Source of the DNA: Mobula hypostoma
Lineage: Eukaryota
Direction: 5' to 3'
Length of the DNA: 64,000 nt
Assembly (NCBI RefSeq): GCF_963921235.1
Contig: NC_086108.1
Span: forward strand, 33,048,001-33,112,000
The stretch's first letter is position 1, and every line of letters begins with the position of its first letter. Both the position numbers and the translations under genes were made by a program. Under the pieces are notes generated by a model, which was given only the letters and a program-made list of their open reading frames with translations, did not search any database and was not told where the DNA came from. This document shows, in pieces, positions 38,201 to 64,000 of the stretch.

Positions 38201-39070
38201 GTACGATACCGACTCAGTTTTGTTAGTCTCGAAGAATGTGTCAATGTTAACTGATATATAACTACAAAATTTCTCATTAGAAAGCAAAAGGGGGTTAAGT
38301 CTCCACAGAGGCCGTTCTCTAACGTTTAAAGGAAAACATAGGTCCAGTTTCACGGGCGAGTGATCGGGTATAACTATAGCAGTGTATTCAATTTGTCTAA
38401 TCATAGGTATCAAGGAATTATCTATAAAGAAACAGTCTAGCCTGGAATAGGGGTGGTGAACATGAGAGAAGAAAGAGAATTGCCTAACTGATGGATTCAA
38501 AAATCTCCAAGGATCCATATAACCATTTTGTTGCATAAACATCGAGAAGGCCTTTGCCATACCAGAAAATGTTCCTCTAGGGCAAGACCTATCAAGCAGT
38601 GGGTCAATAGCACAGTTCAAATCTCTGGAAAAGATTAGTTTATGTGTATTCAGGTTAGGTATTAATGACAAAACCTTATTTGCAAATTGGACATCATCCC
38701 AATTAGGAGCATAAACATTTACCAAAATAACAGGTATCTGAAAGAGAGAGCCAGAGACTATAATAAAGCGACCATTAGGGTCACTGATTACATCAGATGG
38801 TGTGAACTGCATTCTTTTGGTGATTAATATTGCCACCCCCCTGGACCTACTATTAAATCCGGAATGAAAAACCTGACTAATCCATGCTTTACGAAGTCTA
38901 TAATGGTCCTCCACTCTTAAATGTGTCTCTTGTAGAAACAGTATATCTGCTTTTAATTGTTTCAGATGAGAGAAAACTTTAGCTCTTTTAACCGGACCAT
39001 TGAGCCCCTTTACATTCCACGAAATAAACCTCACAGGGTGGCCTCCATCAGCAGCACTCACGTTAACCAT
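35279..39070 (-). CDS. L1 ORF2p: APE endonuclease + reverse transcriptase + C-terminal CCHC
   Basis: Uninterrupted frame, 1263 aa from the ATG at 39070 (the ORF track starts at 39169): SWNVKGLN, LQETHL, PDHSPV, YRPISLLN, LDAEKAFDRV, QGCPLSP, YADD, CDRC...HAFWSC. Confidence 0.93.
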   Translation of the reverse strand: MVNVSAADGGHPVRFISWNVKGLNGPVKRAKVFSHLKQLKADILFLQETHLRVEDHYRLRKAWISQVFHSGFNSRSRGVAILITKRMQFTPSDVISDPNGRFIIVSGSLFQIPVILVNVYAPNWDDVQFANKVLSLIPNLNTHKLIFSRDLNCAIDPLLDRSCPRGTFSGMAKAFSMFMQQNGYMDPWRFLNPSVRQFSFFSHVHHPYSRLDCFFIDNSLIPMIRQIEYTAIVIPDHSPVKLDLCFPLNVRERPLWRLNPLLLSNEKFCSYISVNIDTFFETNKTESVSYSLLWETLKTYLRGQIISYTSHANKESRKEMQVLLKSIWDLDRKYSEAPTAELYKSRVDLQAKFNLLSTNLSEQLILKTRGLYYEYGDKASWLMAHQLKCQAASRLIPQVRDMHQNLTNNPKEINNIFATVYSSLYASEFPSDKTNMERFLDNLEIPTLEPEEVENLDWALGQEEINNAIMAMQSGKSRGPDRYPIEFYNKFKDKLTPVLLEVFQESLENGSLPPSLSQAAISLLLKKDKDPTQCGSYRPISLLNVDVKILACRLEHPLPKIISDDQTGFIKNRYSFFNIRRLADVVYSPSDSPSPEVVIALDAEKAFDRVEWVYLFSVLEKFGFGRIFIAWFKLLYHLPLACIQTNYFRSGYFPLTRGTPQGCPLSPLLFAIAIEPLSIAIKSTTLFQGVRRGDMEHPVSLYADDLLLYVSDPIGSSPAIVSLLGQFGAFSGYKLNFQKSKCFPINNLALQIRQESLPFPLSQDGFVYLGIHITRSFTFLFEANYRPQVSQMKADFERWRSLPLTIAGRIQSVKMTILPRFLYLFQCLPVFLSKLFFKSVDQAITSFTWENKVPRVNKHTLQRGRDIGGMGLPSFIHYYRASNIQKVLFWLHRPDIIWCLLESRSCHSSSLPALVYSSLPLKSSQFTSNPVVLSTLKIFNQFRCHYKFISASVLGPIHKNHLFPPSTFDSAFRQWGLNGLMRIKDLYTDNTFDSFDNLRGKYGLLHNHFFKYLQNRHFVKEKFPSFPVLPPAMLWEKFTLSFNNKGLISELYSQLMSLGVQDLNKTKSRWEDDLSMDLAEEYWAKVLNRVHFSSSCARLGLIQFKVLHRVHLSKARLVDIYPGTDAGCDRCSFSPAGLMHAFWSCPRLDDYRALVFKIISEVLGVTLKPCPLIAVFGVADDDLGLNASQSDIIAFTSLLARRRILLVWKSATPPTAAAWLEDVMFFLKLEKIKFTLTGSVKKFYSKWGPFLTYFGSLKELPTS

Positions 39071-39657
39071 ATCAAAAGACACACAGGGCCTACAATCCAA
39101 AACAGTGCGAGGGTATAAGTTGCACACAATAACGCACAATGAAAAGAAAGTCTGATCAATCCGTAACACACAAAAGAATAAACTGCCATGGCAATCCCCC
39201 AGAACAGTCCCCCCACCCCTTTACACAAAAAAACCTAGATCTACCTCCCCAATTGAGGATGATCGCAGGCAGTACCCAACAAAAAACTACCAAGGTGTTC
39301 CCCATACAACCCAACTTTCAATCTAATCCAGGGTGGCTCCCCTCCTTAAAATTTATCCTATCACTTATACTACCTTTAATATAACATATAGGCCAAAGAT
39401 GACACAGGTTAAGCTGAGCATTAAAAACAAAAAAAAACCACACTGGGCAACTTAAACACCCGAGATATAAATCCCAAATATTTACATTTTGCTGGTTGAA
39501 AGTTTTTGTTAATCAGTTTCGGCAGCATAGCAGTTCGACCCGATCGCGTTCCACAAATTAAACTGGACAAAATGAACAAAGAAGTGGATTGTGAAAATTA
39601 ACAGTTTGCTTCGGCATGAGACCCTTTCCATGCTGCATGAATAAGCTTAAAAAAAAG

Positions 39658-40558
39658 TCATTGCTCTTCTCGTTCTTCTTCTCCCCAGCGCGAATGGTGA
39701 AACTCTTTGGCCGCCTCTGGTGTATGGAAATAATGCTTTTTACCGTCATGCATGACCCAGAGCTGGGCAGGATACAAGAGGCCAAACCTGACCCCTTTCC
39801 CGTAAAGCAGGGATTTCACCTCCTTGAAAGCTGCTCGTTTTTTACCCAGCTCCGCACTAAAATCTTCATAAAAAAACACGCGGTGTCCGCGGAAATACAG
39901 CTCCTGCTTCCGTCTGTTGATGATGCATTGCTTATCTTGAAAGGAGTGAAAGCAAACCAGGAACATTCTTGGTCTCGTTTGCTTGGATCCAGAGACACCG
40001 GATGGTTTACATCCGACTCGGTGAGCACGCGAAAGTACGAGAGGACTTGGGAAAAAATCTGTCCCCAGCACTTCGTCAAAAAACTCGGTCATAAATTTAA
40101 CAGGGTCCGAACCTTCCAAATTTTCAGGAATGCCGACCATTCTCAAATTGCATCTCCGCGACCGATTTTCGAGGTCATCTAGCTTTCCCTTCAGAAATGC
40201 GTTTTCGCTCTGCAGTGGCGGCTTCGACGCTCACCAGTCGGTCACTGTAATCATTCAGGCCATCTTCAACCCCACGAATGCGTTTGTCATGTGACTCGTA
40301 AGCAGACATAATTTGTTTCATGGTAGCATTCACTGGTGATAAAGCATCTTCAAGTTCTCTTTTTAGGGCAGAATGCACCGCTTGCGTCATGTCAGTAATA
40401 AGTACTAAACGAAGCCTCACCAAGTCATTGGGTAGCGCAGGTCCGGGTCCAGCTCCAGCAGCGTGTAACGGCGCCATTACTGTAACATCCGCCCTCTTGC
40501 TCGCGGCTTCGCTATCTTTTTCCCCAGTTTTACTTCGAAGGTGCATTCTACTTGCCAT
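39658..40558 (-). pseudogene. L1 ORF1p (coiled coil + RRM + CTD), frameshifted near 40190
   Basis: Two ORF halves, 40175-40558 and 39658-40146, with RMVGIPE, RAHRV, RPR, FYEDFS, LLYPAQL motifs. Confidence 0.9.
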
Positions 40559-42098
40559 TTCAATGTCCAGCTATGTCCCGCGTTGTTCACAATGGTAAAT
40601 ATTCAGTTATCTCGAGCATACGGCAAAGATAAACAGGTAGATTTTCAATAAAAATTGGGAGCCACACTCACACGCACCAACTCACTCCATACTCGACCCC
40701 GGAAGTCTCAAGAGCGAACTTTGACCTTGAAATAAATTGCAGAATACGCTGTGCGAGTGGAGCTTTTGCCAGGCTGAGAAAGAGGGTTTTTGAAGATTGG
40801 GATATCAAGACCAACACTGAGCTTCTGGTCTATAAAGCTTTAGTCCTTCCCTCTTTGCTATATGGAGCAGAGTTATGGACAACCTACAGCAGGCACATAA
40901 AATCCCTAGAAACTTACTATCAAAGATGCCTTCGAGAGATTCTGAGAGTTAACTGGAAGAACAAGCGTACTAACTCCAGCATCCTGGAGGAAGCCAACAT
41001 TAACTCTGTAGCCACAATCGTGACTCAACACCAATTGCGATGGGTTGGCCACATCATCCGTATGCCGGACATCCACCCCCCTATCAACTTTTGCTCAGTC
41101 AACTCAAGGATGAAAAATGCTCTCCTGGAAGGCAGAAAAAGCGGTTCAAAGACAATATCAAGACCCACCTGAGGAAGAGCCACATCAGCCTGAATGGATG
41201 CGAGAAACTAGCGCAGGATGGGGAAAGCTGGAGAAGAACTGTCTATGAGGAGACTGCACAGCTCGAAGAACACCTCCACCCTCCCACTTGGACTAAGCGG
41301 CTTCAACGTAAGGAGAGGCTGGAAAGGCCCAACCAGCTACATCCACCACCACCTCAATGACCTACACCTGCCAACACTGCAACAGACTTGTGGATCACGG
41401 ATCGGCCTCTTCAGTCATCTCAAGACCTACAAGTGAACAGATCAACCACCAGGAGAAGAATCATACTCGACGACCAGTGATCGCTGACAATGATGAAGAT
41501 GTACGTACAGGTTTCTGTCAGTGTGCGTGCATATCCAGTCATGTAAGCATATTTTTATGACTGTCTTCATAAATTATCCCTTAAATTATACCTTCTAAAA
41601 TCTACTATTTCACATATCAAAACAATTGCAAAACGTAAGTGGATGTCATAAGCACAAGTGACGGGAAATAACTACACATCTCACCAACCTCACCAATCTT
41701 AGTAAACAAAATGAGCTTTTTTAACGACGTTGTACTCAGCAGAGACATCACAGATTCAGTGTCATTTCACACCCCTGTGGAGTCTCACGATTTCAGGATG
41801 TTGCTTGGCTTACATCCGTTTACAAGATCTATCAGAAAATACATTTATAGCAATGTTTTTTCAGTAAATTTGTCTAAGCTCTTTCATTTTGTTTTGATTG
41901 CAAACTTAAATCAAATCCACAGAGTAGACACAGCGAAACGAAGGGATCTGGCTGACCAGTTCTTCCTTAACAAACATTTTAAAGGAATGAGCAGGAAAAG
42001 GCCACTGGTACAGTGTATTCAGACTGCCTCAGATATTTGAAAACATCAGGGCAAAACACTTCATTGCCCAACCCCCTTCTACTGCAGAAAGACATATA

Positions 42099-44195: not shown

Positions 44196-45955
44196 TGTCA
44201 TGGTCCGGTACGTGAAGTCCGCATTCCGGTTCACGGTCCGGTCCGTGGACTCAGAACTCCGGGTCTTTCAGCTGTCCCTTGATTGGGTTAATCATAGGCA
44301 CCTGATTCCCATCTTGGGGCTTGGAATATAAGTAACTTTGGTGTTGAGTGTGGGCTGCTGGTTTGTCTTGTCAGTCCCCCTTAGAGCATCCTGCTGATGG
44401 AAGGCTAGTGAAACCATTTGTGATCTCTAGGCCTGGCTGGAGGACCACTGCTTCATGGAGCCTTGTTGCCATTCATTGGAGTAGTCTTTGCAGTATGGAT
44501 TTGGCTGTTTCCCAGGGCAGCTGAATGGCTGCCAGCCATTCTGAGCTAGGTACGGATCCAGCTGTTTCTGTAGCCAGCTGAGGTTGCTGGCCGAACTGAG
44601 ACTTGGAGCTACCCCAGAGCTGAGATGGAACTGTCTGTTGTTCTTTGGTATTTGTCTCTTCTTGTTCTCGCCTCTGTGGGGTAAGCCAGGCTGTTTTGCC
44701 GTTGCCCTGCAGGGGGATCTGCCTTGTCTAGTCCTTACCTCTGTTAGGTAAATCCAGCTGTTCTGCCGTTACCTGATGGAGAGACCTGTCCCACCTTGGT
44801 GTGGAGATGAAGCTGAGTCCTGGCTTGTCTTAGGATAAGTCCTGGCTCTATGTTTATGTTCTGTCCTGTCTCATGTTAGTGTCATATTAAAGATGAGTCC
44901 CGGCTTGTCGAAGGATAAGTCCCGGCTCTATGTTGATGTTCGATTCCCAATCTGTCTCTGAGCTCCAAGAACCCAAGCCTCGAGGATCCCGCAGCCAAGC
45001 TCCAAGAACCCAGGCCTCGAGGATCCCGCAGCCAAGCTCCAAGAACCCAAGCCTCGAGGATCCCGCAGCCAAGCTCCAAGAACCCAAGCCTCGAGGATCC
45101 CCAGCCAAACTCCAAGAACCCAAGCCTCGAGGATCCCGCAGCCAAGCTCCAAGAACCCAAGCCTCGAGGATCCGCAGCCAAACTCCAAGAACCCAAGCCT
45201 CGAGGATCCCGCAGCCAAGCTCCAAGAACCCAAGCCTCGAGGATCCCGCAGCCAAGCTCCAAGAACCCAAGCCTCGAGGATCCCGCAGCCAAGCTCCAAG
45301 AACCCAAGCCTCAAGGATCCGCAGCCAAGCTCCAAGAACCCAAGCCTCGAGGATCCCGCAGCCAAGCTCCAAGAACCCAAGCCTCGAGGATCCGCAGCCA
45401 AGCTCCAAGAACCCAAGCCTCGAGGATCCCGCAGCCAAGCTCCAAGAACCCAAGCCTCGAGGATCCGCAGCCAAGCTCCAAGAACCCAAGCCTCGAGGAT
45501 CCCGCAGCCAAGCTCCAAGAACCCAAGCCTCGAGGATCCGCAGCCAAGCTCCAAGAACCCAAGCCTCGAGGATCCCGCAGCCAAGCTCCAAGAACCCAAG
45601 CCTCGAGGATCCGCAGCCAAGCTCCAAGAACCCAAGCCTCGAGGATCCCGCAGCCAAGCTCAAGACCCAAGACCCCAGCCTGCAGCCATGTCATGTCCTT
45701 GCCTTGTTCTGGGGTCCGAGCCCAAGGCAAGACCCAGGTTTTGGGTCCTTGTCCAGTCTCGGGCTTGGAGTGCTAGCCTTGCCTCCTAGTCCATGGTTTC
45801 TAGTCCTGGTCCCGCTTTCCCTAGCCCAAGTCAGCGTTCTTGTCCCTGCTCCTTGCCTGTATCCTGTCACGTCCCTGCTGTAGTCAAGTCCTGTTCCTTG
45901 TACTTCAGCGTCTGTGTCTCGCATTTGGGTCCGCTACCAGCACCCCATTGTGACA
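44196..45955 (+). mobile_element. Solo LTR, family B (Gypsy-like), carrying a minisatellite
   Basis: TGTCA...TGACA termini; 5-bp TSD TGCTC / TGCTT; interrupts the hAT reading frame; 3' motif GCATTTGGGTCC similar to 56735-56769. Confidence 0.85.
44961..45661. repeat. Minisatellite, 19 units of 36/37 bp (GCAGCCAAGCTCCAAGAACCCAAGCCTCGAGGATCC[C])
   Basis: 19 GGATCC sites counted at 36-37 bp spacing; units near-identical with no spacers. Confidence 0.97.
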
Positions 45956-49655: not shown

Positions 49656-50400
49656 CGAAATCAAAGTGACTAAGCAGTGAGTATGAGAGAGGCTGAGAGA
49701 CAAGTAAGAGAAAGATGTAAATTTGGAACCAAGCTTTGGGGAAATGTTAGTTTTGGTCTGATTGATATGGGGGAGGAAGGAAAATAGCCTAGACCAGGTG
49801 GTCTCAAGAAATCTATGAGCTCCCCATTGCTGTATTGGGAATGTGGATAGAGGAAACAGTTTGCTGTGGGGGAAAGATACAGCAAATTACCCCTGAAGTG
49901 CAGGATGGTTACAGAAGAGTAAACTGCTTTGCAAGTAAGACCAAAACCCAGTGGTAGACTGTGTCATCCAGCCAGACCTAAAGAGGATTGGTTACTCCAG
50001 CTGGTACAGGCCTGAAGTGCTGTAGGCAAGCTGTATGATACCCTGATTCTGTATTATCAGGAGGAGTGGGTAAGGAATGTAGGCACATGGCGAAAAAAGC
50101 AGACTGGAGGGCTGCAGTCCAGAGTGGCAGATAGTACGTACATACTAATACGTTCACAGAGAAAGAATTTTATAGGCTTGATTTATGGAAATCAGTTAGA
50201 TTTACAATCCTGGGAACACATGGGTGTGGGGGGGTGGTGAAGAAACAAGAATGAAGTGCAAAGGTAAAGCAGGAGATCTTGGGGTGAGATAAAGCTGATC
50301 TGAGCTATATGGCACATCAACAACCTGCATTGAATATCGGAGATGTAAATATGAGTTTAGACGTAATTATTTGGAAGAAGCCTTAGTAACAACTGGTAGA

Positions 50401-50433
50401 GCTTCTTGGCCTTTTGATTGAGATCAAGTGTAG
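50401..50433 (+). pseudogene. U2 snRNA 5' fragment (about nt 4-36)
   Basis: GCTTCTTGGCCTTTTGATTGAGATCAAGTGTAG matches the recalled U2 sequence GCTTCTCGGCCTTTTGGCTAAGATCAAGTGTAG at 29/33 nt. Confidence 0.75.
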
Positions 50434-50927
50434 CGTAGCAGTAATAGATGCTGCCTCACAATTGCTGAGATCTTCAATCAAGACTGTGCTACCAGTGAGG
50501 GGTTTGCATGCCATCTCTGTAGCTACATTTTCTCTTCAGGCGCCCTGGTCAGTGGGTGAAACTGCATGTTGCCCCTAAGGTGCAGGAAAACAGTGGAATC
50601 AGTGGGGTGAGGATGAGAATGAAGGGAGAGTAAAATGGGAGCAGTGTAGGATTGATGTTATTGGCTGTGTGATGATGGACATGGAACTGGTATTAGAGTT
50701 GGTTTATCATTGCCACATGTACCAAAATAAAGTGAACAGCTTCCCACTGCTGTTCTGTAAGGGGCTTGTATGCTCTTCCCGTTTCCTCCAGGTGCTCCAG
50801 TTTCCTCCCACAGTCCAAAGACATACCAGCTGGTCATTGTAAATTGTCCCATGATTAGGCTAGGGTTAATTTGGGGGTTGTTTAGGCTGAAAGTCCTATG
50901 CTGTATCTCAATAAATATAAATATAAA
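50434..50927 (+). mobile_element. V-SINE-like fragments (old copy ~50434-50680, younger partial copy ~50742-50927)
   Basis: GCTGCCTCACA head relic; V-domain-like TTTCCTCCAGGTGCTCCAGTTTCCTCCCACAGTCCAAAGAC; GCTGTATCTC followed by an A/T-rich tail. Confidence 0.65.
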
Positions 50928-51706
50928 GAATTTGCCTTGTGTACTGTGCATAAAGATCAAATCATGACACTCTACATTGAGAAAGGTCAAAGTAACACAA
51001 TAACAATGCAGAATAAAGCAAAACAGCTACAGAGAAAGTGCAGTGGAGATAAACAAAGTGAAAGATCATAATGAAGTGATTGTGAGGTCAAAGGTCTGTT
51101 TTTCTTTGATAGCAGAGGAAAGAATAGACGAATGCACTGATTGAATGTAATAAAATAGGATAAGAGTGACACATGACTGTAAAAGAGGGCTGGAGCAGTT
51201 TGTCTATTGGCTTATTTCTGTGCTGTAAGTTCCTTCATTAATAATAGATATACACAAACAGAACATGAGCATTATTTCGCCCCAGGAGTTTATAATTCAT
51301 ACCTGACAAATCATCAGCCACCCAGCCTCCTAATACCCTTCCTCAGGTGCTGCCATAAAGCTTTGTTATTACCTACTGAATTTAATTTACAAGCAGCGCT
51401 CCTCGCTGATTCAATATGCAGATGGTGTCTGTGACATGCTGCTACTGGGAAGCAGATTTGCAGATCTGGTGAGTGGGATCGAACACACTGATTTGCGAGT
51501 AAACACGTTAACTATTTATTTACAAGACAAACGGTGACACACCCAGCCAAACGTCTAAGTCAAACGAGTACTTTTCTAAGCCCCCTCAGTTACAAGACCT
51601 CGACTCTAAACATTTAATGACCCTTCAAACTAAACTCGGTTACTGAATCTTATCTAATTGGAGAGCCTGAAGTGGCAGGACAAAACAGACACTAAACATA
51701 CACACA

Positions 51707-52566
51707 TAGAAACATAGAAAACAAAACAGCACAATACAGGCCCTTCGGCCCACAAAGTTGTCCCTACCTTAGAAATTACTAGGCTTACCTATAGCCCTCT
51801 ATTTTTCTAAGCTCCATGTACCTATCCAAAAGTCTCTTAAAAGACCCTATCATATCTGTCTCCACCTCCATTGCCGGCAGCCCATTCCACGCACTCACCA
51901 CTCTCTGCATAAAAAAACTTACCCCTGGCATCTCCTCTGTACCTACTCCCCAGCACCTTAAATCTGTGCCCTCTTGTGGCAACCATTACAGCCCTGGGAA
52001 AAAGCCTCTGACTATCCACACGATCAATGCCTCTTGTCATCTTATACACCTCTATCAGGCCACTTCTCATCCTCCGTCGCTCCAAGGAGAAAAGGCCAAG
52101 TTCACTCAACCTATTCTCATAAGGCATGCTCCCTAATCCAGGCAGCATCCTTGTAAATCTCCTCTACACCCTTTCTATGGTTTCCACATCTTTCCTATAG
52201 GGAGGCGACCAGAACTGAGCACAGTACTCCAAGTGGGGTCTGACCAGGGTCCTATATAGCTGCAACATTACCTCTCAGCTCCTAAATTCAATTCCACGAT
52301 TGATGAAGGCCAATGCACTGTACACCTTCTTAACCACAGAGTCAACCTGCGCAGCTGCTTTGAGCATCCTATGGACTCGGACCCCAAGATTCCTCTGATC
52401 CTCCACACTGCCAAGAGTCTTCCCATTAATACTATATTCTGCCATCATATTTCACCTACCAAAATCAACCATTTCACACTTATCTGGGTTGAACTCCATC
52501 TGCCACTTCTCAGCCCAGTTTTGCACCCTATCGATGTCCCGTAGTAAACCCTGACAGCCGTCCACA
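51707..52566 (-). mobile_element. CR1 3' fragment inserted in the ERV 3' LTR
   Basis: (TTTCTATG)n tail, YENRLSELGLFSLERRRMR peptide, TSD ACACA (51702-51706 / 52567-52571). Confidence 0.92.
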
Positions 52567-52879
52567 ACACAGGCAAATAGTTAACTAGAATGTTGCATGG
52601 GCCATCTGTGCAACAGCATATCCCCCCCCCCTTTACCATTTCTGTTGCACCCTTGTCTACCTGGTCCATGGCAACCCAAAAGGAAGAAGAGACCATGTGA
52701 TCACCGTGTGCTAGATTTAAACAGCACCGCACTGTGATGCCATCATCTGAACGGAAGGTTGTGGGAGGGGCTGCAACGTCCTTACTCAGGCCAGTCTCGA
52801 CCTCCCATGGGGGAGTCACTTTGATGAGTAAGTAAGTTAGGATACTTACTATTACATCCAGCCCCTTGAAAGTCACAAT

Positions 52880-53801
52880 GCCGTGATATTTAACCTACAG
52901 ACTAGTATAACCCTCATGGACGCCCCACCATACAAGTAGTACCCAGAATTACCAGCTCACCAGTTATTACCCAGTGTGTTACAGCAGTCCACCAGCCTCC
53001 CAAATGCCTCCAATACCAACCGAATCCCCTCACCCGGGGTATAGTAGACTTTATGGAACTGACCCCTGACTTTCCTGGTCTTATTTACTGACTGCTGGCT
53101 GTGATCAGCCAGGTGAGTAATGGTCCAGATGCACTAGGGATGTAGGTGAAGCATTCCTGACTAATCGCAGCACAGGTTCCACCTTTCTCCATCAGCAGGT
53201 AGTCTAAGGCCATCCAATTCTGTAAGACAACCATTCGAAGAGCCATAATTTCAGTTGACAGTCACGTCCGTGCATCCTCCATTTGCTTGAGCACTGCTGC
53301 CTTCTCATTGGCCAGTGCATCCATGCGTATGAGTTCCCGGGACAGCCTGGCTGTACCATACAAGCGAAAGGCTATCATCCAGAACCTTTCTGCCTCAGTG
53401 ATAGGCCTCTTATTGTGCTGACCCTCATAGGCAGGGTGCTCATTCAGGCTATTAATGTATAAATGTACGGTACCATGTACCCCGAATAGCAGCAGCTGTA
53501 AGCCCAACTGCATCATATCAAATACATACCGTTTAGTGATCGGGAGTGCCACCTTCACAACAACATTCGGTGCAGACACAGTGGTCCCAGGATAGAGCTC
53601 TCTCTTACACTCACTGTGCCCCACTGACTGGTTGGAGCTGTGCTCATCGTACTACCTGCACCAACCCTCCTTCCCCTATCATGTGGCAGAGTGCTAACTC
53701 TCTGAGTCGGGACCCAGGATTAGACAAATCATACATAGGGAAGTGCCAGCCCTTAAAACACTTGCTGTACCGGAGGTTTACAAGTATTTTAATGCCATTC
53801 C
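52880..53801 (-). pseudogene. env: Retroviral env pseudogene, gamma-type (SU C-terminus + TM)
   Basis: WAY..CCYSGYMVPYI; furin-like HNKR; fusion-peptide-like FWMIAFRLYGTARL; ISD LQNWMALDYLLMEKGGTC; CAAISQECF (decayed CX6CC); Trp-rich GWYWRHLGGWW then hydrophobic WVITGELVILG; in-frame stop at 53262-53264 and frameshifts. Confidence 0.9.
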
Positions 53802-55523
53802 TGTCGTGTTTTCAATATTTCAGTAATATTTGGTAATATTGTAAATGTATTGTTTGATTCCTTGTTTGTTTACATAATTCATTATGGGTGATATTTAAGA
53901 AGTATGTGAATGGCGTACGTCATTATGTCACTGGGTCATAAGTGAGCGCTCCTCTAAAGTAAAACAAAATAGACATAGTCTCCCATGTTTTTCTTTTGAT
54001 TAATTTCTGAAGTTACAAAAAATAGCAGTGGTGATGAGGTAGTTTAAAAATGAACCTGAGACCATCACCTACCTGTTGAAATGCAGCAAGACATTTAAGT
54101 TCAAAAAAAGTGCAGCACAGTTTTTTTCTTTGAAATGGGAGATAGAGACATTTGAGACATAAAAAAAATGCACAGCACATATTTCCTTGCACAGGGAGAA
54201 ATATGGCCAAGTTAAAAAAGGCAGAAAGTGGATAATAAATTTTGAAAAGCAAACAGAAATGGCAGGCTAAATCAGAAAGGTCTGATTATACAACAGCCAT
54301 CTGGATTATGTATACTGAATAAATTGAGCAGTATTTTGAAGCAAGTGAATTAGCCTATGAAAAGTGAGTGTCAGTGTTACTGAGTGCAATACATGGAAAA
54401 GATTATAGTTCCCTTAGCAGATTAACCACTCCAACTATACCAGCCTAAATGAGCTTTGCTGATATCGTGAACATAATACAGAAACATTTAGAACCAAAAC
54501 CATTGTTGATTACAGAGCACTTTAGGTTTCACAAGTGGAATAGAAGGAAACGGAGCCCATTTCAGCTTACGTGTCTGAAGTGAGGAAATTGTCTGAGTAT
54601 TGTCATTTCAGTGACAGCTTAAAATGCACTGAGAGATCATTTAGTTTGTGGAACCTTACAAGAAAGCATTCAAATCCAGCTTCTAACTGAATCACTTACA
54701 TTTAAAAGAGCAGTTGAAATCACCACATCAATGGAAACAGCAGCCAGCGATGCAATTGAGTTGCACTCAGGAATGCAAGTGAGCCTGAAGAAGATTGCAA
54801 CATCTAAGCAAAAACCTGCCTGTCTGAACAAACTGTGTTACTGTTGTAACTGGAGCTCATATACACCAGACCAATGCAGGTTTAAAGGCAAAACTTTCAG
54901 AAAATGCAACCAAGCAGGACACATAAAAAGAGCATGTCGGGCAGACAAAAATAAATGGATTGAACAGGGAAGAGAAAAAGATAGACAGTCAAGTTGCAGT
55001 TTCAAAAAGAGCACCAATCTGCATGCTGTTGATGACAAATCTGATAATAATGAGAATGATACAGCTCTGCGTGGACTTCAGTTTTACTATGCGAAAACTG
55101 ACAAGAGACAAGCAATATAGCTTACACCATAAGTGAATGGCAAATTAATTAAAATGGAATTGGACACTGCCTCAACTGTTTGTCTTCCAACAAAATGCAT
55201 TTGAATGGTATTTCAGATACTGAACTGAAGCCTGCAGATATCCAACTAAGAACTTATACTGGAGAAAAGATAACTCCTGTGGTATTGGTATTTGTAACAG
55301 TGAAATACAACAACCAACAACCAACATACATTGGGTGAAAACAGAAGGAACAGCATTGTGGGGACATAAGTGGCTGAGAGAACTACAGCTTGACTGGAGA
55401 TCCATTTACCATCTGCAGTGTTCAAGGATGACATTGGAAAATTCAAACATATTAATGGTAAAATAGTGTTAAATGAAAAGCCCATCTCGTTCCTTTACCA
55501 TCCGTGACGGAGTGGCCAGTGAG

Positions 55524-56313
55524 CAATTTTCCCTGTAATTTGTAATGACCTGTGTGTGCAAAAATCTTGTTCCGTGCACTTTTTTGTCCAGTGACTACAA
55601 GATGTGCACACTGAATTTTATATATAGAGCTATTCACTTTGACAGCTAACAAAACATTGTCTATAAGAACTTTGATCTTCACTGGGCTTGGTCATTTTCG
55701 CTCTTGTTCATCTGCACTCTCACAGAATATATGTAGCAGGCCTGCTACATAATAAAGATTCTCTTGCCGGAGTTTTTGCACACTGTCCACATATGATTTG
55801 CTTGCTGAATGATGCTTTAAAAAGTCAAGTTTCTAAATATCACTCCACTTCTTCCCACTTGCAAATTCTCCAGCAACTTTTGCATCACAACAATACATGC
55901 AGCTAACACCAGTTTCTATATTGTACATAAATATTTTTCATAGCTGCATGCTCCTGACCTCATGAGCTTTCAGTGTAGCAGATCTACTGTTTCATTAAGC
56001 CATGAACTAGCAGATCTTTTGTGCTTCACACCCTTAGCGTCTTTGGAATTCAATATGGTAAATCAATAATTTCTCCAATAAAAACAGTATAAGCAAGCCA
56101 TTTCTAAAATCTGCAGACAAATCATTGCAACTCCACGTTGTCAACACCGTCCCACATCAGAAACCGGAAAAGGAAATGTGATTGTGTATGAATGTGAAAT
56201 ATACTTAACATGCCAATGAGGTAGAGGGTGACAACCTTTTGTGTAAAATTTAAATTCCTTTCAGCGCTAGTAACAATAGATGTGTGTGCGTGCAAACCTT
56301 AGTGGGAATATTG
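55524..56313 (-). mobile_element. Non-autonomous hAT (Tip100-like) element
   Basis: TIRs CAATTTTCCCTGTAA / TTAGTGGGAATATTG; 8-bp TSD CCAGTGAG / CCTGTGAG; minus-strand zinc-finger relic CMYCCDAKVAGEFASGKKW..KLDFLKHH. Confidence 0.8.
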
Positions 56314-56474
56314 CCTGTGAGTTAGATCACATGGAGGCTGAAGAAATTATTTCCAAGTTTAAGTGGAGCCCCATGTGCAATGCCAGTGGTCCCAGCAGCC
56401 ACAAAGAATGGGTCTGTCAGGATCTGTAGTGATTTTAAGTTTATCATTAACCCAGTAGACCAATACCATCTGTA

Positions 56475-58005
56475 AAAATAGTGGCCTCACTTTTCATTGG
56501 CTAATTCATTTGCTTCAAAATACTGCTCAGGTTGCCAGTTTGTTGGTTTAGTCTCGTGTGATACCTCGTTCTCTTGTCCGCTTAGAACCGTTAGTTTTAA
56601 GTTTAGTTCTAAGTTCTGCTCTAGTTTCAAGATAGTCCCTGTAGATCCCGTCTCCTTGCCAAGATTCCTCTGGTTTGCTGTTCTACGTTCACATCTACGC
56701 CAGCATCCCCAACTCAGTCGACATGATGGTGTCCTGCACTTGGGTTCACCTCAGTCGCCCCATGAAACATTTATTCAGTATACATGATCCAGTTTTCTGT
56801 TGTAAAATCAGACCTTTCTGATTTAGCCTGCCATTTCTGATTGCTTTTTAAAATTTATTATCAATTTTCTGCCTTTTTTAACATTAGTATATTTCTCCAC
56901 ATGCGAAGAAACACGTGTTGTGCTTTTTTAAAAATCTCAAACATCTGTATTTTCCCTTTCAAAGAAAAAAATGTGCAGCACTTTTTTAAAACTCGAATGA
57001 CTTGCTGCATTTCAACAGTTAGGTGTTGCACTCAGGTTTATTTCAGAACTACCTCATCGCCACTGCTATTTTTTGTAACTTCAGAAATTAATCAAAAGAA
57101 AAACATGGGAGACTATGTCTATTTTGTTTTACTTTAGTGGAGCGCTCACTTATGACCCAGTGACATAATGACGTACGCCATTCACATACTTCTTACATAT
57201 CACCCATAATGAATTATGTAAACAAACAAGGAATCAAACAAAACATTTACAATATTATTCAGTGTTACTGAAATATTGATTAAATGACAGGAATGACCTT
57301 AAATACTGAAGTCTCAGTAACCCCCAGTGGAAAAAGTGTTTTAAGGGCTGGCACTTCCCTACGTATGATTTGTCTAATCCTGGATCCCGACTCAGAGAGT
57401 TAGCACTCTGCCACATGATAGGGGAAGGAGGGTTGGTGCAGGTAGTACGATGAGCACAGCTCCAACCAGTCAGTGGGGCACAGTGAGTGTAAGAGAGAGC
57501 TCTATCCTGGGACCACTGTGTCTGCACCGAATGTTGTTGTGAAGGTGGCACTCCCGATCACTAAACGGTATGTATTTGATATGATGCAGTTGGGCTTACA
57601 GCTGCTATTCGGGGTACATGGTACCATACATTTATATATTAACAGCCTGAATGAGCACCCTGCCTATGAGGGTCAGCACAATAAGAGGCCTATCACTGAG
57701 GCAGAAAGGTTCTGGATGATAGCCTTTCGCTTGTATGGTACAGCCAGGCTGTCCCGGGAACTCATACGCATGGATGCACTGGCCAATGAGAAGGCAGCAG
57801 TGCTCAAGCAAATGGAGGATGCACGGACGTGACTGTCAACTGAAATTATGGCTCTTCGAATGGTTGTCTTACAGAATTGGATGACCTTAGACTACCTGCT
57901 GATGGAGAAAGGTGGAACCTGTGCTGCGATTAGTCAGGAATGCTTCACCTACATCCCCGATGAGACTGGACCATTACTCACCTGGCTGATCCTATCCAGC
58001 AGTCC
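56475..58005. repeat. Right arm of the inverted duplication of ~53090-54375 (interrupted by an LTR-like fragment at 56531-56769)
   Basis: Reverse complement of env TM/SU, Gypsy LTR, PBS and gag start; ORFs 57473-57832(+) and 53262-53624(-) are nearly identical. Confidence 0.95.
57335..58005 (+). pseudogene. env: Second (inverted) env copy, truncated before the membrane anchor
   Basis: HNKR, LQNWMTLDYLLMEKGGTCAAISQECFTYIP; shares the TGA stop (57830-57832) with the first copy. Confidence 0.9.
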
Positions 58006-58194
58006 ATTTTAGAATTTGTCCATTACTATGAGAGGTTTCTTCCAAAACTGGCTACCCTGCTCTACCCTTTGAACTCATTACTACAGATTGCGAAGAAATG
58101 GCAATGGACAAAGCAGTGTGAGGTGGCTTTCCGAAAGGCAAAGGAAATGGTGAGGATTAAATCAAACACCCATCCAATACAGCTTTAACAAACA

Positions 58195-58855
58195 CAAAGG
58201 TTCAAAGGTTCAAGGGTTCGTTCATTATCAAACTGCACAACTCTGAAATTCTTCTTCTCTGGGTAGCCATGAAACCAAGAAAGAAAAGAAAGGGAGGACA
58301 ATCATCAACCCCCAAACCCCACTCCAGGCACAGAAAAATGAGAAAGATTGAGCAAAAAAACACAAAATATAAAAAACTATAAGTCTGAAAGTATCCAAGC
58401 CCACATCCGAAGTGCAGAAAACCTGAGTAACACTCTCAGGGCGCAATGGCAGGCTCTGCCCTCTCTATAGCAGAGTGATCAAAAGGCAGGCAGCCGGAGC
58501 TCACCCTTTGCACTTCCCTCAATGTTTCAATCTCCTTCATCGCTTTAATCACCGCACAATGGAAGCTTTAATCGGTGCAATTGAGTCAAACTGCCTTGTG
58601 GCCCATCCTGCAGCCTGCCCACTTTGAGATTCGCGCATAATGCCTCTGTCTCCTGGAATCCTCTTGCAGACTTGCAGAGCGCTGAGGCACCCAAATGATT
58701 ACCAAGCAGAAAATCACAGGCTTCAATGGTTCCAGAAATACTTCCAAGAAGAAAAACAAACATAAAGGACATAAAAGAATTGAAATACATGGTTTCATGA
58801 TCTATCCAGAAGATGTCGACCAAAGGAATGTTATACGCAGGCACCATCTTGACCT
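58195..58855 (-). mobile_element. Non-coding LINE-derived/SINE-like element
   Basis: Minus strand begins AAGATGGTGCC and ends in a (TGAACCT)n-type tail; no ORF or clear TSD. Confidence 0.5.
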
Positions 58856-58872
58856 CTCCTCAAGACAGATTT

Positions 58873-58914
<42 letters not shown>

Positions 58915-58979
58915 ATAAACTCACGCAAGCCACACCTTATGTAACATTTTTCCAAACTCAAGCCATTCATGGGGATGTG

Positions 58980-59356
58980 GGGGCAGGTAAGGGACAGGGC
59001 ACATGACCCACTCCCTCTTTGGCCTGGCTGTGTGCTTTCCCCATGATGGTACAATGCTGGTGTAGCACTTCCATCTCATTCTTGAGACTTGCTATCTCCT
59101 GCTTTCTCTGTGTGATCGTCACGTGCTGGTGCTTTACAATGACTGCCAGCAGTCAGAAAGCATCCCTGAGGCTCTCCTTCCTCTTGGGGAACCCTACCTT
59201 ATTAAGCACGAACAATATATGGTGTCTGATTTTCACCCTGCTGACATCCAACTTGTCTGACCAGTCTTCAGGCACCTTGTAGTCCGCCAGTAGGTTAGTG
59301 GGAGTCCCAAGTTCCGCACTATTGTCAGTCCACCCCTGGGTCTCAACGTTGATCAT
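58980..59356 (-). pseudogene. Putative ERV gag N-terminal stub
   Basis: Frame MINVETQGWTD...LRDAF*LLAVIV...QEIASLKNEMEVL starts ~75 nt downstream of the PBS; assigned by position only. Confidence 0.45.
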
Positions 59357-59428
59357 GCGGGGTGGTGGGGGGGGGGAAACTCTCTCTCTTATTCTTCTTT
59401 TAAAGACCCTCATCTTCTGTTCAATCAC

Positions 59429-59446
59429 CGAATCCTGCTGACGCCA
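59429..59446 (-). promoter_or_regulatory. ERV primer-binding site, tRNA-Ser-like
   Basis: TGGCGTCAGCAGGATTCG lies 2 nt inside the 5' LTR; equals the recalled Ser(AGA) PBS TGGCGTAGTCGGCAGGATTCG with a 3-nt deletion and one substitution. Confidence 0.6.
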
Positions 59447-59701
59447 AACGTTACAGGGAAGCAGATTCATGGATTTGGTGTATGGGATAGAAGACACTGA
59501 TCGTGAGTAAGCTCATTTATTTAGAGAACAAACAGTGAAACACCCAACCAAACATATAAGTCAAACAAGCATTTATTTAAGCCCCTTGGGTTACAAGATC
59601 ACAACACTAAACATTCAATGACCATTCAAGCTAAACTCGGTTACAGATTATTAACTAAACTGAGAGCCTGAAGTGGCAGGACCAAACAGACACTAAACAT
59701 A

Positions 59702-61325
59702 CAGTGGTATGCAAAAGTTTGGGCACCCCGGTCAAAATTTCTGTTATTGTGAATAGTTAAGTGAGTAGAAGATGAACTGATTTCCAAAAGTCATGAAGTT
59801 AAAGATGAAACATTCTTTTCAACATTTTAAGCAAGATTAGTGTATTATTTTTTGTTTTGTACAATTTTAGAGTGAAAAAAAAGAAAGGAGCACCATGCAA
59901 AAGTTTGGGCACCCCAAGAGATTTGAGCTCTCAGATAACTTTTACCAAGGTCTCAGACCTCAAATAGCTTGTTAGGGCTATGGCTTGTTCACTGTAATCG
60001 TTAGGAAAGGCCAGGTGATGCAAATTTCAAAGCTTTATAAATACCCTGACTCCTTAAACCTTGTCCCAACAATCAGCAGCCATGGGCTCCTCTAAACAGC
60101 TGCCTAGCACTCTGAAAATTAAAATAAATGATGCCCACAAAGCAGGAGAAGGCTATAAGAAGATAGTAAAGCATTTTCAGATAGCTGTTTTCTCAGTTCT
60201 TAATGTAATTAAGAAATGGCAGTTAATAGGAACAGTGGAGGTCAAGTTGAGGTCTGGAAAACCAAGAAAACTTTCTGAGAGAACTGCTCGTAGGATTGCC
60301 AGAAAGGCAAATCAAAACCCGCGTTTGATTGCAAAAGACCTTCAGGAAGATTTAGCAGATTCTGGAGTGGTGGTGCACTGTTCTGCTGTGCAGGGACACC
60401 TGCACAAATATGACCTTCATGGAAGAGTCATCAGAAGAAAACATTTCTTGCATCCTTACCACAAAATTCAGCATCAGAAGTTTGCAAAGGAACATTTAAA
60501 CAAGCCTGATGCATTTTGGAAACAAGTCCTGTGGACTGTTGGAAGTTAAATTAGAACTTTTTGGCTGCAATGAGCAAAGGTATATTTGGAGAAAAAAGGG
60601 TGCAGAATTTCATGAAAAGAACACCTCTCCAACTGTTAAGCACGACGGTGGATTGATCATGCTTTGGGCTTATGTTGCAGCTAGTGGCACGGGGAACATT
60701 TCACTGTTAGAGGGAAGAATGAATTCAATTAAATACCAGCAAATTCTGGAAGCAAGCATCACACTGTCTGTAAAAAAGCCAAAGATGAAAAGAGGATGGC
60801 TTCTACAACAGGATAATGATCCTAAACACACCTCAAAATCCACAATGGACTACCTCAAGAGGTGCAAGCTGAAGGTTTTGCCATGGCCCTCACAGTCCCT
60901 CGACCTAAACATCATCGAGAATCAGTGGATAGACCTCAAAAGAGCAGTATGTGCAAGACGGCCCAAGAATCTCACAGAACTGAAGCCTTTTGCAAGGAAG
61001 AATGGGTGAAAATCCCCCAAACGAGAATTGAAAGACTCTTAGCTGGCTACAGAAAGTGTTTACAAGCTGTGATACTTGCCAAAGGGGGGTGTTACTAAGT
61101 ACTGACCATGCAGGGTGCCCAAACTTCTGCTTCGGGCCCTTTTCCTTTTTTGTTATTTTGAAACTGTAAAAGATGGAAATAAAAAAGTAATCTTGCTTAA
61201 AATATTAAAGAAATGTGTCATCTTTAACTTTATGCCTTTTGGAAATCAGATTATTTTTTACTCACTTCGCTATTCACAGTAACAGAAATTTTGACCAGGG
61301 GTGCCCAAACTTCTGCATGCCACTG
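59702..61325 (+). mobile_element. Full-length IR/DR-type Tc1 DNA transposon (1624 bp) inserted in the ERV 5' LTR
   Basis: TA TSD; ~210-bp imperfect inverted repeats beginning CAGTGGTATGCAAAAGTTTGGGCACCCC with inner direct repeats (59894-59915, 61113-61130). Confidence 0.96.
60082..61105 (+). pseudogene. Tc1 DD34E transposase, frameshifted
   Basis: GEGYKKI, RSGKPRKLS, QQDNDPKH, WPSQSLDLNIIEN, AKGG motifs; frameshifts near 60540, 60980 and 61090. Confidence 0.92.
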
Positions 61326-62197
61326 TACACACAGTGGCAAGTACTGAACTAGAGTGAGCACATGGGCGTTCTGTGCTGCAGCATACCCCACATGGTCTAC
61401 CATTTCTTTGGCACCACCGTCTACCCGGCACCAAAAGGGAGACTGAATGATTACGGCATGAGCCGTGATGTCATCAGCTAAGCAGACGATAGTGGGAGGG
61501 GCTGCAATGCTCCTTGCATGGGCCAGTCCTCACCTCCCATGGGGGGACTGGCTTCGATGAGCAGGTGAGTTGAGACACTACTTCAACACATGCTAGGCAA
61601 TACGTGCTGTGTCTGCTCTGCCTATGAAGTTGAGCTCGCCCTCATTTGAAAAATGGCATGATTCACAACGTAACACTCCAGCTTAATCAAACCTCCAAAT
61701 TTCTGAAAGCCTACCCGGAATCCAATGATACTTCAAGGCACTTAGAATTGTTCAGATCGGTTTTGTTTAATAAATCATACCCTCAGGCTCCAGCAACAAA
61801 CCAATCAAACAAGAGTAAATTTGAAACATCATTCTTGACAGATTTTTATTTTAAATAAGAATCACTCCAGTTTTGCTCTTTAGTGATTTGCTTATGTCTG
61901 TGGTGGATTAGAATAATATTTTATATATAGAATGGGGACAGTGTATTGCAGAGTCATGACATAACGTTCTGAAAATATTGTTCATTGATTTGGAGGCAGC
62001 CTCAAAGACAAGAAAAGAAGGCGGGTGCTGGATTTTTCTACTACTTTGCAGTCAGAGATGGTGCAGCACTGATATTCCCTCAGGGGTGTCTCCAACTGAT
62101 TGCTCACTGATCCTTGCCAAAGAGTTGTAGGTTCATGTTATATGACTAAATCTGGCTCCTGTATTATATACAGATCTTGAACAGAATTTGCTTAATT

Positions 62198-63176
62198 CAG
62201 AGTCAGAATCAATATGAGGTTTAAGATCACTGGCATAATTTGTGAAATTTGTGGTTTTGCAGCAGCAGCACAGTTCAATACATAATATAAACTCTATAAG
62301 TTACAATAAGAAATATATACGTAAAAATTAAATTAAGTAAGTGATGCAAAAAGAAAGGAGATAAAAATATTGAGGTAGTGTACATGATTAGTCAGGGTGT
62401 GAAAGGTTATAGGGAGATGGCTTGATGAAATGGCGAAACAGTCTTAAAGGGCCAAATAGCCTAATTCTGCTCCTTTTATCTAATCGTTCATTGTCCATTC
62501 AGAAATCTGGTGGTGGAGGGATAGAAGCAGTTCCTAAAACGCCGTGTGTGTCCTCACACTTCTGTACCTCCTATCTGATGGTAGCAATGAGAAAAGGGCA
62601 TGTTCTGGGTGATGGGGGTCTTTAATGATGGACGCTGCCTTTTTGAAGAATCGGGTTGGAGATGTCCTCGATGTTGAGGAGGATGCCCTTGATGGAGCAG
62701 GCAGAAGTTGCAACTTTCTGCAGCTTTTTCCAAATCCTGCGCAGTGGCCCCCCCCCATACCAGAGTGATACAACCAGTTAGAATGCTCCCCACAGTATAT
62801 CTGTAGAAGATTGCTGGAGTGACTTGTAAGTGCATTGATATGTTGGGCCTAGGATAGATCTTCAGGGATGTTGACCCCCATGAACTTGAAACTGCTCGCC
62901 CTTTCCACTGTAGATTCTGCAATGAGGACTGGTGTGTGTTCCGTCGACTTCCCCTTCCAGAAGTCCACAATCAATTCCTTGGTCTTACTGACATTGAACG
63001 CAAGGTTGTTGTTGTAAAACCGTCTCTCTTCTGTACACTCCCTTATCACCATTTGAAATTGTGCCAACAATAGTTGAGTCTTGGCAAATTTATAGATGGT
63101 GTTTGAATTGTGCCGAGTCACACAATAGTGTGTGTAGAGAGAGTAGAGCAGTGGGCTAAATACGCTTCTTTGAGAT
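62198..63176 (-). mobile_element. Rex1/Babar-like LINE 3' fragment with a small CR1 tail inserted at ~62390-62480
   Basis: SPLLYSLYTH.C, KFA, NVSKTKELIVDF, FKFMGVNI, KAASIIKDPHHP peptides. Confidence 0.85.
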
Positions 63177-63488
63177 GCACACACAAAATACTAGAGGAAC
63201 TCAGCAGGCCAGGCAGCATCTATTGAAAAAAAGTACAAAGTTTTAGGCTGCAACCCTTTGGCAGGAGGTGTGCTGGGGTTGATTATCAGTGAGGAGAAGA
63301 AGTTATTACTGATTTGCGATGACTGTAATCTCCCAACTAAGAACTCAAGGATCCAGTTGCAGGAGGAGTTACAGAGGTCGAGTTTTTGGAGCTTGTTAAT
63401 TAGTACTGTGGATATGATGGTGTTAAATGTTGAGTTGTAATTAATAAATAGCAGCCTGGAATCAATCTGCAGTAGTGCTATTGTAGGT

Positions 63489-64000
63489 CAGGGATCCCCA
63501 ACCTTTTTTGCACCGCGGACCGGTTTAATATTGGCAATATTCTTGCGGACTGGCCGACCTGGGGGGTGTGGGGGTGTTGTGTTCAAGTAGGGTTAAACTC
63601 ACCTCAACATGTCTTTTACAGTTAGGGTTGCCAACTTTCTCACACCCAAATAAGGGACAAAAGTAGTAGTCGAATCCCTGGACACTTTACCCCCAGAAAG
63701 ACTACCATGACCATGAAGCGTTGCGCGGGTATCTGTGTGCGCATGCGTGGCGTGCGCATGGGAAGTACGCACGCGCGTACTTGCCGATTTCCCACAAAAA
63801 ATCGGTTTTGCCTTCATCTTCCTGACTATACTGTACATACATTGTTTCTACTTTATATAGGCTGTGTATTTATCATATCGTTCCTGCTTTTACTATATGT
63901 TAGTGTTATTTATTTTCGGCTTTATGTGCTATTTGGTATGATTTGTTAGGTTATTTTTTGGGTCTGCGAACGCTCAAAAATTTTTCCCATATAAATGAAA
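63489..64000. mobile_element. hAT-Charlie-like MITE, running off the window end
   Basis: TIR-like CAGGGATCCCCAACCTTTTTT; CpG-rich interior; partner TIR not in the window. Confidence 0.6.

What the first reader, a model, noticed from the sequence alone, without database searches (positions are those of the whole stretch)
53090..58005. Inverted env duplication inside a provirus with mosaic arm identity: candidate gene-converting palindrome and dsRNA hairpin locus
Seen: ~53090-54375 (env TM/SU, Gypsy LTR, PBS, gag start) is repeated in reverse orientation at ~56475-58005 around a ~2.1-kb spacer, replacing part of the Gypsy RT. Arm identity is patchy by eye. It is near-perfect over ~620 bp of env (57335-57957; a handful of substitutions, one 3-bp indel, a shared stop) and over ~195 bp of LTR (57060-57254). 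It is clearly diverged in adjacent tracts (57255-57334, 56860-57058, 57958-58005), and the right arm has since acquired its own insert (56531-56769). Inference: an old duplication re-homogenised by arm-to-arm gene conversion. A minus-strand transcript from the ERV 5' LTR to the 3' LTR would carry env in both senses and fold into a >1-kb stem, and the two Gypsy LTR copies face each other. The locus could therefore yield env- and Gypsy-directed small RNAs or ADAR substrates. Function is hypothetical.
Basis: partly seen in the sequence, partly recalled or inferred. Interest (0 to 1): 0.8.

Follow-up and report, generated by a model that had tools for sequence, protein, structure and literature searches.

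The report
Gene-converting palindrome in dead provirus
A broken ancient retrovirus in what is likely a ray genome holds an old flipped copy of part of its envelope gene, and the two copies have likely kept overwriting each other through ordinary DNA repair; nothing yet shows that the locus makes a silencing RNA.

Summary
The inverted repeat is real: arms 53090-54376 and 56479-58004 hold env SU/TM, a Gypsy LTR, PBS and gag start, inside a decayed provirus (51440-61588, 5-bp TSD); the right arm sits where about 158 codons of Gypsy RT are missing. Identity is mosaic beyond chance: two tracts differ by 1.0% and 1.9%, the rest by 17.8%, matching the LTR-LTR distance (18.4%); seven other repeat pairs in the window are uniform. 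Public contigs show both diverged arm versions in this organism and a relative (B, about 2.4% away), and the inner junction in a third (C, about 5% away), so the duplication is old. Four changes in the env tract are shared by both arms here while B and C read otherwise: concerted evolution after the split from B. Gene conversion is therefore well supported. It is a known process between nearby repeats. The hairpin/small-RNA role is untested: the tract drifts between species at the neutral rate, both proviral LTRs are split by insertions, and the related env copies seen are only 81-87% alike. Verdict: a well-documented new example of a known kind; function unshown.

The parts
51440..52856 (-). 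ERV 3' LTR (51440-51702 and about 52573-52856), split by a CR1-type LINE 3' fragment (51703-about 52572); 5-bp TSD copy at 51435-51439
   Evidence: LINE RT C-terminus read (CR1 label recalled)
52857..53089 (-). polypurine-tract-like site and unique env C-terminus (membrane anchor, tail), not duplicated
53090..53136 (-). left arm, diverged tract T0 (env TM); 6 of its 9 differences lie in 53129-53136
53137..53763 (-). left arm, homogenised tract H1: env SU end, cleavage site, TM ectodomain; broken by stops shared with the right arm
53764..53833 (.). left arm, diverged tract T1 spanning the env / Gypsy LTR junction (LTR start inferred at 53802)
   Evidence: ERV-paralogue contigs start at 57305-57310
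53834..54044 (+). left arm, homogenised tract H2: Gypsy LTR 3' part and PBS-like site (TGG at 54029)
54045..54376 (+). left arm, diverged tracts T2/T3: Gypsy leader and gag start
54377..56478 (+). spacer: Gypsy gag, protease, RT start (collinear with P0002 residues 12-502), with a 790-bp DNA-transposon-like insert at 55524-56313 (8-bp TSD, 7/8 match; 10-bp TIR)
56479..57046 (-). right arm, inverted gag start and leader (T3, T2), with the private 239-bp high-copy insert at 56530-56768
57047..57333 (-). right arm, inverted PBS and Gypsy LTR (H2) and junction tract T1
   Evidence: record 4
57334..58004 (+). right arm, inverted env copy (H1 57334-57957, T0 57958-58004); ends in a few bases that fit both env and RT
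58000..58153 (+). Gypsy RT resumes (P0002 residues 661-711), same strand as the spacer RT, then is truncated; no Gypsy integrase or 3' LTR
58931..59447 (-). PBS-like site and gag-like 5' remnant of the ERV (no homologue found, identity inferred from position); ERV pol absent
59449..61588 (-). ERV 5' LTR (59449-59701 and 61328-61588), split by a Tc1 transposon (59702-61327); 5-bp TSD copy at 61589-61593

Best explanation
This is a real, old inverted duplication of 1.29 kb (env end, Gypsy LTR, PBS, gag start) inside a dead provirus, likely made by a template switch during DNA repair or replication, whose central tracts have likely been re-homogenised more than once by arm-to-arm gene conversion without crossover, probably as a neutral by-product. 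Shown: the arms, the mosaic, the missing RT core, presence of the structure in related organisms, and lineage-specific changes shared by both arms. Inferred order: ERV integration; Gypsy insertion into env; duplication at about the same age (T tracts 17.8% versus LTRs 18.4%); split from C (about 5%); a conversion covering 57825; split from B (about 2.4%); a later conversion over H1 (arms now 1.0% apart). Inferred reason for the mosaic: tracts that stay near-identical keep pairing and converting, while stretches next to junctions and indels (outer junction, the gaps in T1, the 239-bp insert) escaped and now diverge freely. The spacer has no net inversion, since its RT pieces are collinear with the RT outside the right arm.
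For: Mosaic. Both diverged T2 versions exist as separate contigs in organism A (records 2 and 3: 40 and 0 differences; 42 expected for the left arm) and in B (records 12, 13, 21: 6, 37, 46 differences); a C contig bridges the inner junction with 106 and 43 letters (record 25). In A, H1 is one collapsed contig path carrying the left-arm letters (records 6, 7: 3+3 gap and 1 difference, exactly as predicts), depth 22.5-24.8 against 9.5-12.4 for arm-specific contigs. Of the 11 substitution rows shown in H1, 3 (57403, 57775, 57901) are sites where both A arms agree while B and C contigs read another letter; the 1-base length difference at 57555 behaves alike; at 57901 all 10 contigs of run X6, including both B arm types, differ from A. 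Parallel mutation would give 0.03-0.09 such sites (P of 3 or more at most 1e-4 at 1.2% per lineage; 0.007 in the harshest setting tried). At 57825 both arms of A and both arm-type contigs of B agree against all 3 C contigs, pointing to an earlier conversion. Conversion between neighbouring repeats within about 10 kb and its ending at indels or TE insertions are described (PMC8230782, PMC3924837; passages).
Against: Only 40 of 341 letter rows, 12 of 44 indel rows and 32 of 44,205 pieces were shown, and contigs pop bubbles, so arm phase in B and C is inferred, not read. H1 arm distance (6/624) is not by itself significantly below the A-B distance (6/248; Fisher p = 0.11). Run X1 may be the source sample. 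No listed piece bridges the outer junction (58004/58005) in any run, and both B contigs leave the window's sequence at 58004. T tracts were picked as the diverged ones, which inflates their age; LTR pairs can convert too. H2 could not be tested across species (high-copy region). Neutrality is the default, not a result.
Confidence: 0.85

Rival explanations
1. The locus is a selected hairpin or convergent-transcription source of small RNAs against the ERV env or the Gypsy LTR (Mu-killer-like); conversion keeps the stem paired because pairing is useful.
For: Any transcript across both arms is predicted to pair (about -2,140 kcal/mol either strand; 624 perfect 21-mers). The repeat has lasted about as long as the provirus and was converted at least twice. 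H2 covers a high-copy LTR family (summed depth above 10,000). Structure conserved over sequence was read as selection in nematode inverted repeats (PMC1803023, Discussion).
Against: H1 differs between A and B by at least 8/394 and between A and C by about 25/495, like the flanks: no sequence constraint. Env paralogue pieces listed are 81-87% alike, and at 57555-57596 no second contig is laid at 80% in any of the 4 runs (weak: holes prove nothing). The 5' LTR is split by a 1.6-kb Tc1 and the 3' LTR by a LINE piece. AATAAA hexamers lie between the env copies on both strands (3 minus, 5 plus; about chance level). C's left-type contig runs unbroken for 495 nt, which fits loss or non-conversion of its second arm. 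No host-gene domain among 150 of 163 long frames outside the provirus, so no known read-through source.
Confidence: 0.08
2. The duplication was made during reverse transcription of a chimeric ERV-Gypsy RNA, or was already in a parent locus, and arrived with the provirus; conversion followed as above.
For: T-tract divergence equals the LTR-LTR divergence (79/445 vs 47/255, Fisher p = 0.84), as expected if arms and LTRs started identical on the same day. ERV pol and the Gypsy 3' half are both missing, as in a non-autonomous chimera.
Against: Equal ages also follow from a quick series of genomic events; the U3-side LTR distance is higher (24.5%). No second locus with the env/Gypsy junction was seen among the listed pieces (not a full search).
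Confidence: 0.2
3. The duplication is young (about 1%) and the diverged tracts were overwritten from other family copies or hypermutated.
For: H1 and H2 cover two thirds of the aligned columns; T0 differences are tightly clustered (6 in 8 bp).
Against: Both T2 versions are in B and the inner junction and a right-type T2 piece are in C, about 5% away, so the duplication is older than the 1% arm distance. It would need separate overwriting events from ERV and Gypsy donors.
Confidence: 0.02
4. The near-identical tracts are an assembly or polishing artefact (one arm overwritten by the other), or the inverted arm is a chimeric-read artefact.
For: Contigs pop bubbles, so X1 cannot exclude hidden arm differences at single sites; the outer junction is not bridged by a listed piece.
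Against: An A contig with 0 differences bridges H2-T1-H1 (record 4; 46 and 81 letters each side); no second 80%-like H1 contig in A at 57555-57637; the assembly keeps 7 arm differences inside H1; the arm has a private insert; B also collapses over 57334-57727 from the same boundary; other organisms hold the structure.
Confidence: 0.04

Closest known systems
Non-allelic gene conversion between neighbouring repeats: Alus within about 10 kb, LTR pairs (PMC8230782, passages) and concerted evolution of duplicates (PMC3924837, passages)
   Same: Nearby copies, conversion tracts of hundreds of bases, shared derived changes, homogenisation stopping at indels and TE insertions.
   Different: Here the two copies are arms of one local inverted duplication of an ERV-Gypsy chimera, and escaped and converting tracts lie side by side within 1.3 kb (1% next to 17-27%).
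Sex-chromosome palindromes with arm-to-arm conversion, e.g. human Y P6 (PMC3723533, search listing and start of abstract), and nematode intergenic inverted repeats (PMC1803023, abstract and Discussion)
   Same: Inverted arms around a spacer; arm identity higher than expected from age; structure kept while sequence drifts between species; conversion without spacer inversion.
   Different: Arms are 1.3 kb, 93% identical overall, hold only broken mobile-element sequence and no functional gene; chromosome type unknown.
Maize Mu killer (PMC3440606, passages) and tomato inverted-repeat pararetrovirus loci, TSAs (PMC9868043, passages)
   Same: Partly deleted mobile element with an inverted duplication of about 1.3 kb that would fold back if transcribed.
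   Different: Those loci are defined by transcripts, siRNAs and silencing of close targets; none of this is shown here, the host is a vertebrate, and the env targets seen are only 81-87% alike.
Anamniote ERVs with gamma-type Env (bioRxiv 10.1101/2021.11.23.469661, passages)
   Same: Env TM with immunosuppressive-domain and cysteine-loop region; nearest named relatives are env-like proteins of Hypanus, Pristis and Carcharodon.
   Different: This copy is broken by stops, lacks pol and most of SU, and is interrupted by a Gypsy element; its GTE subtype was not determined.

Membership tests
Gene-converting inverted repeat (concerted evolution) | two inverted arms around a spacer | tested here: met
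Gene-converting inverted repeat (concerted evolution) | identity patchy beyond chance | tested here: met
   0 of 100,000 permutations; 7 control pairs uniform
Gene-converting inverted repeat (concerted evolution) | duplication older than the arm distance in the converted tract | tested here: met
   structure in organisms B (2.4%) and C (about 5%), H1 arms 1.0%
Gene-converting inverted repeat (concerted evolution) | lineage-specific changes shared by both arms | tested here: met
   57403, 57555, 57775, 57901; from unphased contigs, 40 of 341 rows seen
Gene-converting inverted repeat (concerted evolution) | same test in the LTR tract H2 | tested here: inconclusive
   high-copy paralogues swamp the orthologous contigs
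ERV with gamma-type Env | paired LTRs with TSD, PBS, PPT around env | tested here: met
   (PBS and PPT by motif and position; tRNA type recalled, not tested)
ERV with gamma-type Env | TM with ISD and CX6CC-type loop | tested here: inconclusive
   TLV_coat and gamma-type structure hits; the loop reads CX6C with the third cysteine absent in both arms, decay or CXnC subtype not separated
ERV with gamma-type Env | retroviral gag and pol | tested here: inconclusive
   pol absent; 5' ORF remnant found no homologue
Gypsy/Ty3 LTR retrotransposon (inner element) | gag-protease-RT order matching a Gypsy polyprotein | tested here: met
   P0002/P0003 collinear hits; integrase and 3' LTR lost
Mu-killer / hpRNA / TSA silencing locus | inverted duplication of a mobile element able to fold back | tested here: met
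   (prediction only)
Mu-killer / hpRNA / TSA silencing locus | transcript across both arms | not testable with these tools
   no raw RNA reads were on offer
Mu-killer / hpRNA / TSA silencing locus | small RNAs from the stem and silencing of a target in trans | not testable with these tools
   needs small-RNA libraries
Mu-killer / hpRNA / TSA silencing locus | near-identical active target elsewhere in the genome | tested here: inconclusive
   env paralogue pieces listed are 81-87% alike; table cut; Gypsy LTR family abundant but identity to H2 not resolved

The most novel reading that the evidence does not exclude
A vertebrate Mu killer: an ancient proviral palindrome kept paired by recurrent gene conversion because its fold-back or convergent transcripts feed germline small RNAs that silence a high-copy Gypsy family (through the LTR/PBS tract) or related ERVs (through env).
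Probability: 0.07. Interest if true: 0.75.

Novelty: new member of a known kind. Interest (0 to 1): 0.36.

Why it matters
As it stands it is a compact natural record of concerted evolution in junk DNA: a 1.3-kb palindrome in a cartilaginous fish that has converted at least twice while neighbouring tracts escaped, with a built-in clock (the LTR pair) and relatives at three distances. It warns that arm or LTR identity can understate the age of a repeat about eighteen-fold, and it could serve to measure tract length and escape in a slow-evolving vertebrate. If small RNAs were found, it would be a vertebrate counterpart of plant hairpin loci that silence mobile elements.

Tried and rejected
No whole genome was held, so no GENECONV run with genomic paralogues. 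Word-index protein searches found nothing for env (0 of 937 candidates) or the gag-like remnant (0 of 194); the Atlas gave only low scores for it. Rfam: 0 matches in 50000-64000. A weak tblastn hit of P0002 to the antisense of env SU (E 2e-4) was rejected because env homologues cover the same bases at E 1e-47. Alternative transposition by the spacer's DNA transposon as the origin was rejected: its ends (55524, 56313) are not the duplication breakpoints. Net inversion of the spacer was rejected: RT pieces inside and outside are collinear on the + strand. The lack of a second H1 contig in C and the unbridged outer junction are holes and prove nothing. All 5 arm differences in H1/H2 that could be polarised (57242, 57600, 57637, 57643; 57884 from 116 informative of 149 homologues) have the unusual state on the right arm; this hints at left-to-right conversion but 6 others are unpolarised. 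Earlier-findings look-ups near the locus, by words, by sequence and for 'env provirus' gave nothing relevant.
Full report
Observation. Left 53090-54376 pairs in reverse with right 56479-58004, with a 239-bp insert only in the right arm. Divergence by tract is 19.1% (T0), 1.0% (H1, 624 columns, six transitions and one 3-bp indel), 27.5% (T1), 1.9% (H2, 211 columns), 16.5% (T2) and 9.8% (T3). No permutation of 100,000 reached the observed longest perfect run (241) or the longest run with at most six mismatches (624). Seven other two-copy pairs in the window, including the ERV LTRs and Tc1 TIRs, were unremarkable under the same test (222-2624 of 3000), the arms were not (0 of 3000).

Anatomy. The host element is an LTR-bounded provirus on the minus strand, 51440-61588, with a 5-bp target-site duplication; each LTR is split by a later insertion, and the LTR halves differ by 18.4% (47/255) and 24.5% (63/257, gappy). 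Env homology reaches 53775, inside T1, so T1 straddles the env/Gypsy junction. The Gypsy element runs on the plus strand: gag, protease and RT start are collinear with polyprotein P0002 up to residue 502, resume at 661 after the right arm, and stop at 58153; the missing 158 residues include the YLDD motif. ERV pol, most of SU and the Gypsy 3' half are gone. The 5' gag-like remnant found no homologue. No host-gene domain was found in 150 of the 163 long frames outside the provirus (13 frames in a TG repeat or antisense to TE ORFs were left out).

Is it real? The answer showed 40 of 341 letter rows, 12 of 44 indel rows and 32 of 44,205 pieces. In A both versions of T2 exist as separate contigs (40 and 0 differences; 42 expected for the left arm), a contig with no difference bridges H2-T1-H1, and H1 is one collapsed path whose differences are exactly the left-arm letters (3 plus a 3-base gap, and 1) at about twice the depth of arm-specific contigs (depth is only a rough guide). 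No second 80%-like contig is laid at 57555-57637. A polishing artefact is thus unlikely. The outer junction is not bridged by any listed piece.

Age and conversion. B holds both T2 versions (6/248 and 37/206 differences), so A and B are about 2.4% apart. C bridges the inner junction (6/152) and holds a right-type T2 piece (9/156) and a left-type piece (about 25/495 after removing arm differences), about 5% away. The duplication therefore predates both splits, and its diverged tracts (79/445 = 17.8%) are as far apart as the LTRs (p = 0.84). Of 11 substitution rows shown within H1, three (57403, 57775, 57901) are sites where A's arms agree and B and C read another letter; one (57825) unites both arms of A and both arm types of B against C; four are seen only in C's contig; one is on B's side; two are A's own arm differences. 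One indel row (57555) also unites A's arms against B and C. At 57901 all ten contigs of X6, including both B arm types, differ from A. Parallel mutation would give 0.03-0.09 such sites at 1.2% per lineage (P at most 1e-4; 0.007 in the harshest setting). The count also fits a conversion part-way back to the A/B split, which predicts four or five shared changes (hand estimate). Against this: the raw H1 arm distance is not significantly below the A-B distance (p = 0.11), phase in B and C is inferred from unphased contigs, and H2 could not be tested.

Mechanism. Most likely a template switch copied 1.29 kb from the opposite strand into the Gypsy RT, soon after the Gypsy entered env (inferred; B's contigs suggest the outer junction may have been reshaped later). 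The arms, 2.1 kb apart at the inner ends, then exchanged sequence by non-crossover conversion: the spacer has no net inversion. Tracts that stayed near-identical kept converting; those beside junctions and indels escaped. This follows the standard picture in which conversion continues until substitutions, TE insertions or large indels break pairing (PMC3924837, passages) and acts between neighbouring repeats within about 10 kb (PMC8230782, passages). An origin during reverse transcription of a chimeric RNA would explain the equal ages of arms and LTRs and stays open.

Function. A transcript over both arms is predicted to pair strongly (about -2,140 kcal/mol; 624 perfect 21-mers), and the Gypsy LTR copies do face each other. 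Whether any such RNA exists could not be tested. Indirect points against selection: H1 drifts between species like its flanks; env paralogue pieces seen are 81-87% alike, poor small-RNA targets; both ERV LTRs are split; C may lack a matched second env arm. The Gypsy LTR tract has many family copies and is the better candidate for a silencing role.

Comparison. It works like sex-chromosome palindromes (PMC3723533, listing) and nematode inverted repeats (PMC1803023, abstract and Discussion), and meets the tested features of a gene-converting inverted repeat. It looks like Mu killer (PMC3440606, passages) and tomato pararetroviral inverted repeats (PMC9868043, passages) in layout only; their defining RNA features are untested, so it is not filed with them. 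Long inverted repeats as such are common (6.6 million in 424 genomes, PMC8728187, listing). Searches listed no report of a converting env palindrome inside a vertebrate provirus; the library lacks most subscription journals, and no supplements were read. Earlier notes on this genome (unchecked) describe conversion between tandem repeats, template-switch products of Gypsy elements and an edited TE hairpin in a 3' UTR; they are leads, not support.

Verdict. Observation confirmed; conversion supported (0.85); small-RNA function unshown (under 0.1). A new member of a known kind, interest 0.36.

Noticed in passing
window 51703-52572 and 59702-61327: Both LTRs of the provirus were hit by different elements (a CR1-type LINE piece, a Tc1 transposon) at the same LTR position, a short CA/TA run.
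   Followed up: partly
window 59702-61327: Tc1 element with about 210-bp TIRs (86% alike) and HTH and DDE domains in two frames.
   Followed up: partly
window 35279-40570, minus strand: L1/Tx1-like LINE with an open 1313-aa endonuclease-RT frame; its ORF1 is split over two frames. Looks young.
   Followed up: no
window 15086-20041 and 25137-31520, minus strand: Two related SCAN-gag Gypsy copies with integrase before RT (Gmr1-like order, name recalled), about 85% alike in pol and uniformly diverged.
   Followed up: partly
window 44961-45671: Young 37/73-bp minisatellite, 98% matches, open in several frames.
   Followed up: no
window 58004, runs X5/X6 records 15, 16: Both arm-type contigs of organism B leave the window's sequence at 58004 (372 and 319 further letters): the right arm may be longer in B, and A's outer junction a later deletion.
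   Followed up: partly
window 56930, run X9 record 27: Organism C's right-type contig leaves the window's sequence at 56930 (99 further letters), and its left-type contig is unbroken over 57205-57703: C may have lost or never converted the second env copy.
   Followed up: partly
window 57803-57957, runs X5/X6: B's two arm types stay separate over the distal env tract where A's are collapsed, so conversion history differs between species along H1.
   Followed up: partly
window 57600-57643 and 53129-53136: Arm differences come in tight clusters (4 events in 44 bp inside H1; 6 in 8 bp at the H1/T0 edge), possibly small unconverted islands or template-switch clusters.
   Followed up: no
window 5079-5621: ALKBH8_N Pfam hit; from recall this model also matches LINE RT C-termini, so probably not a host exon.
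   Followed up: no
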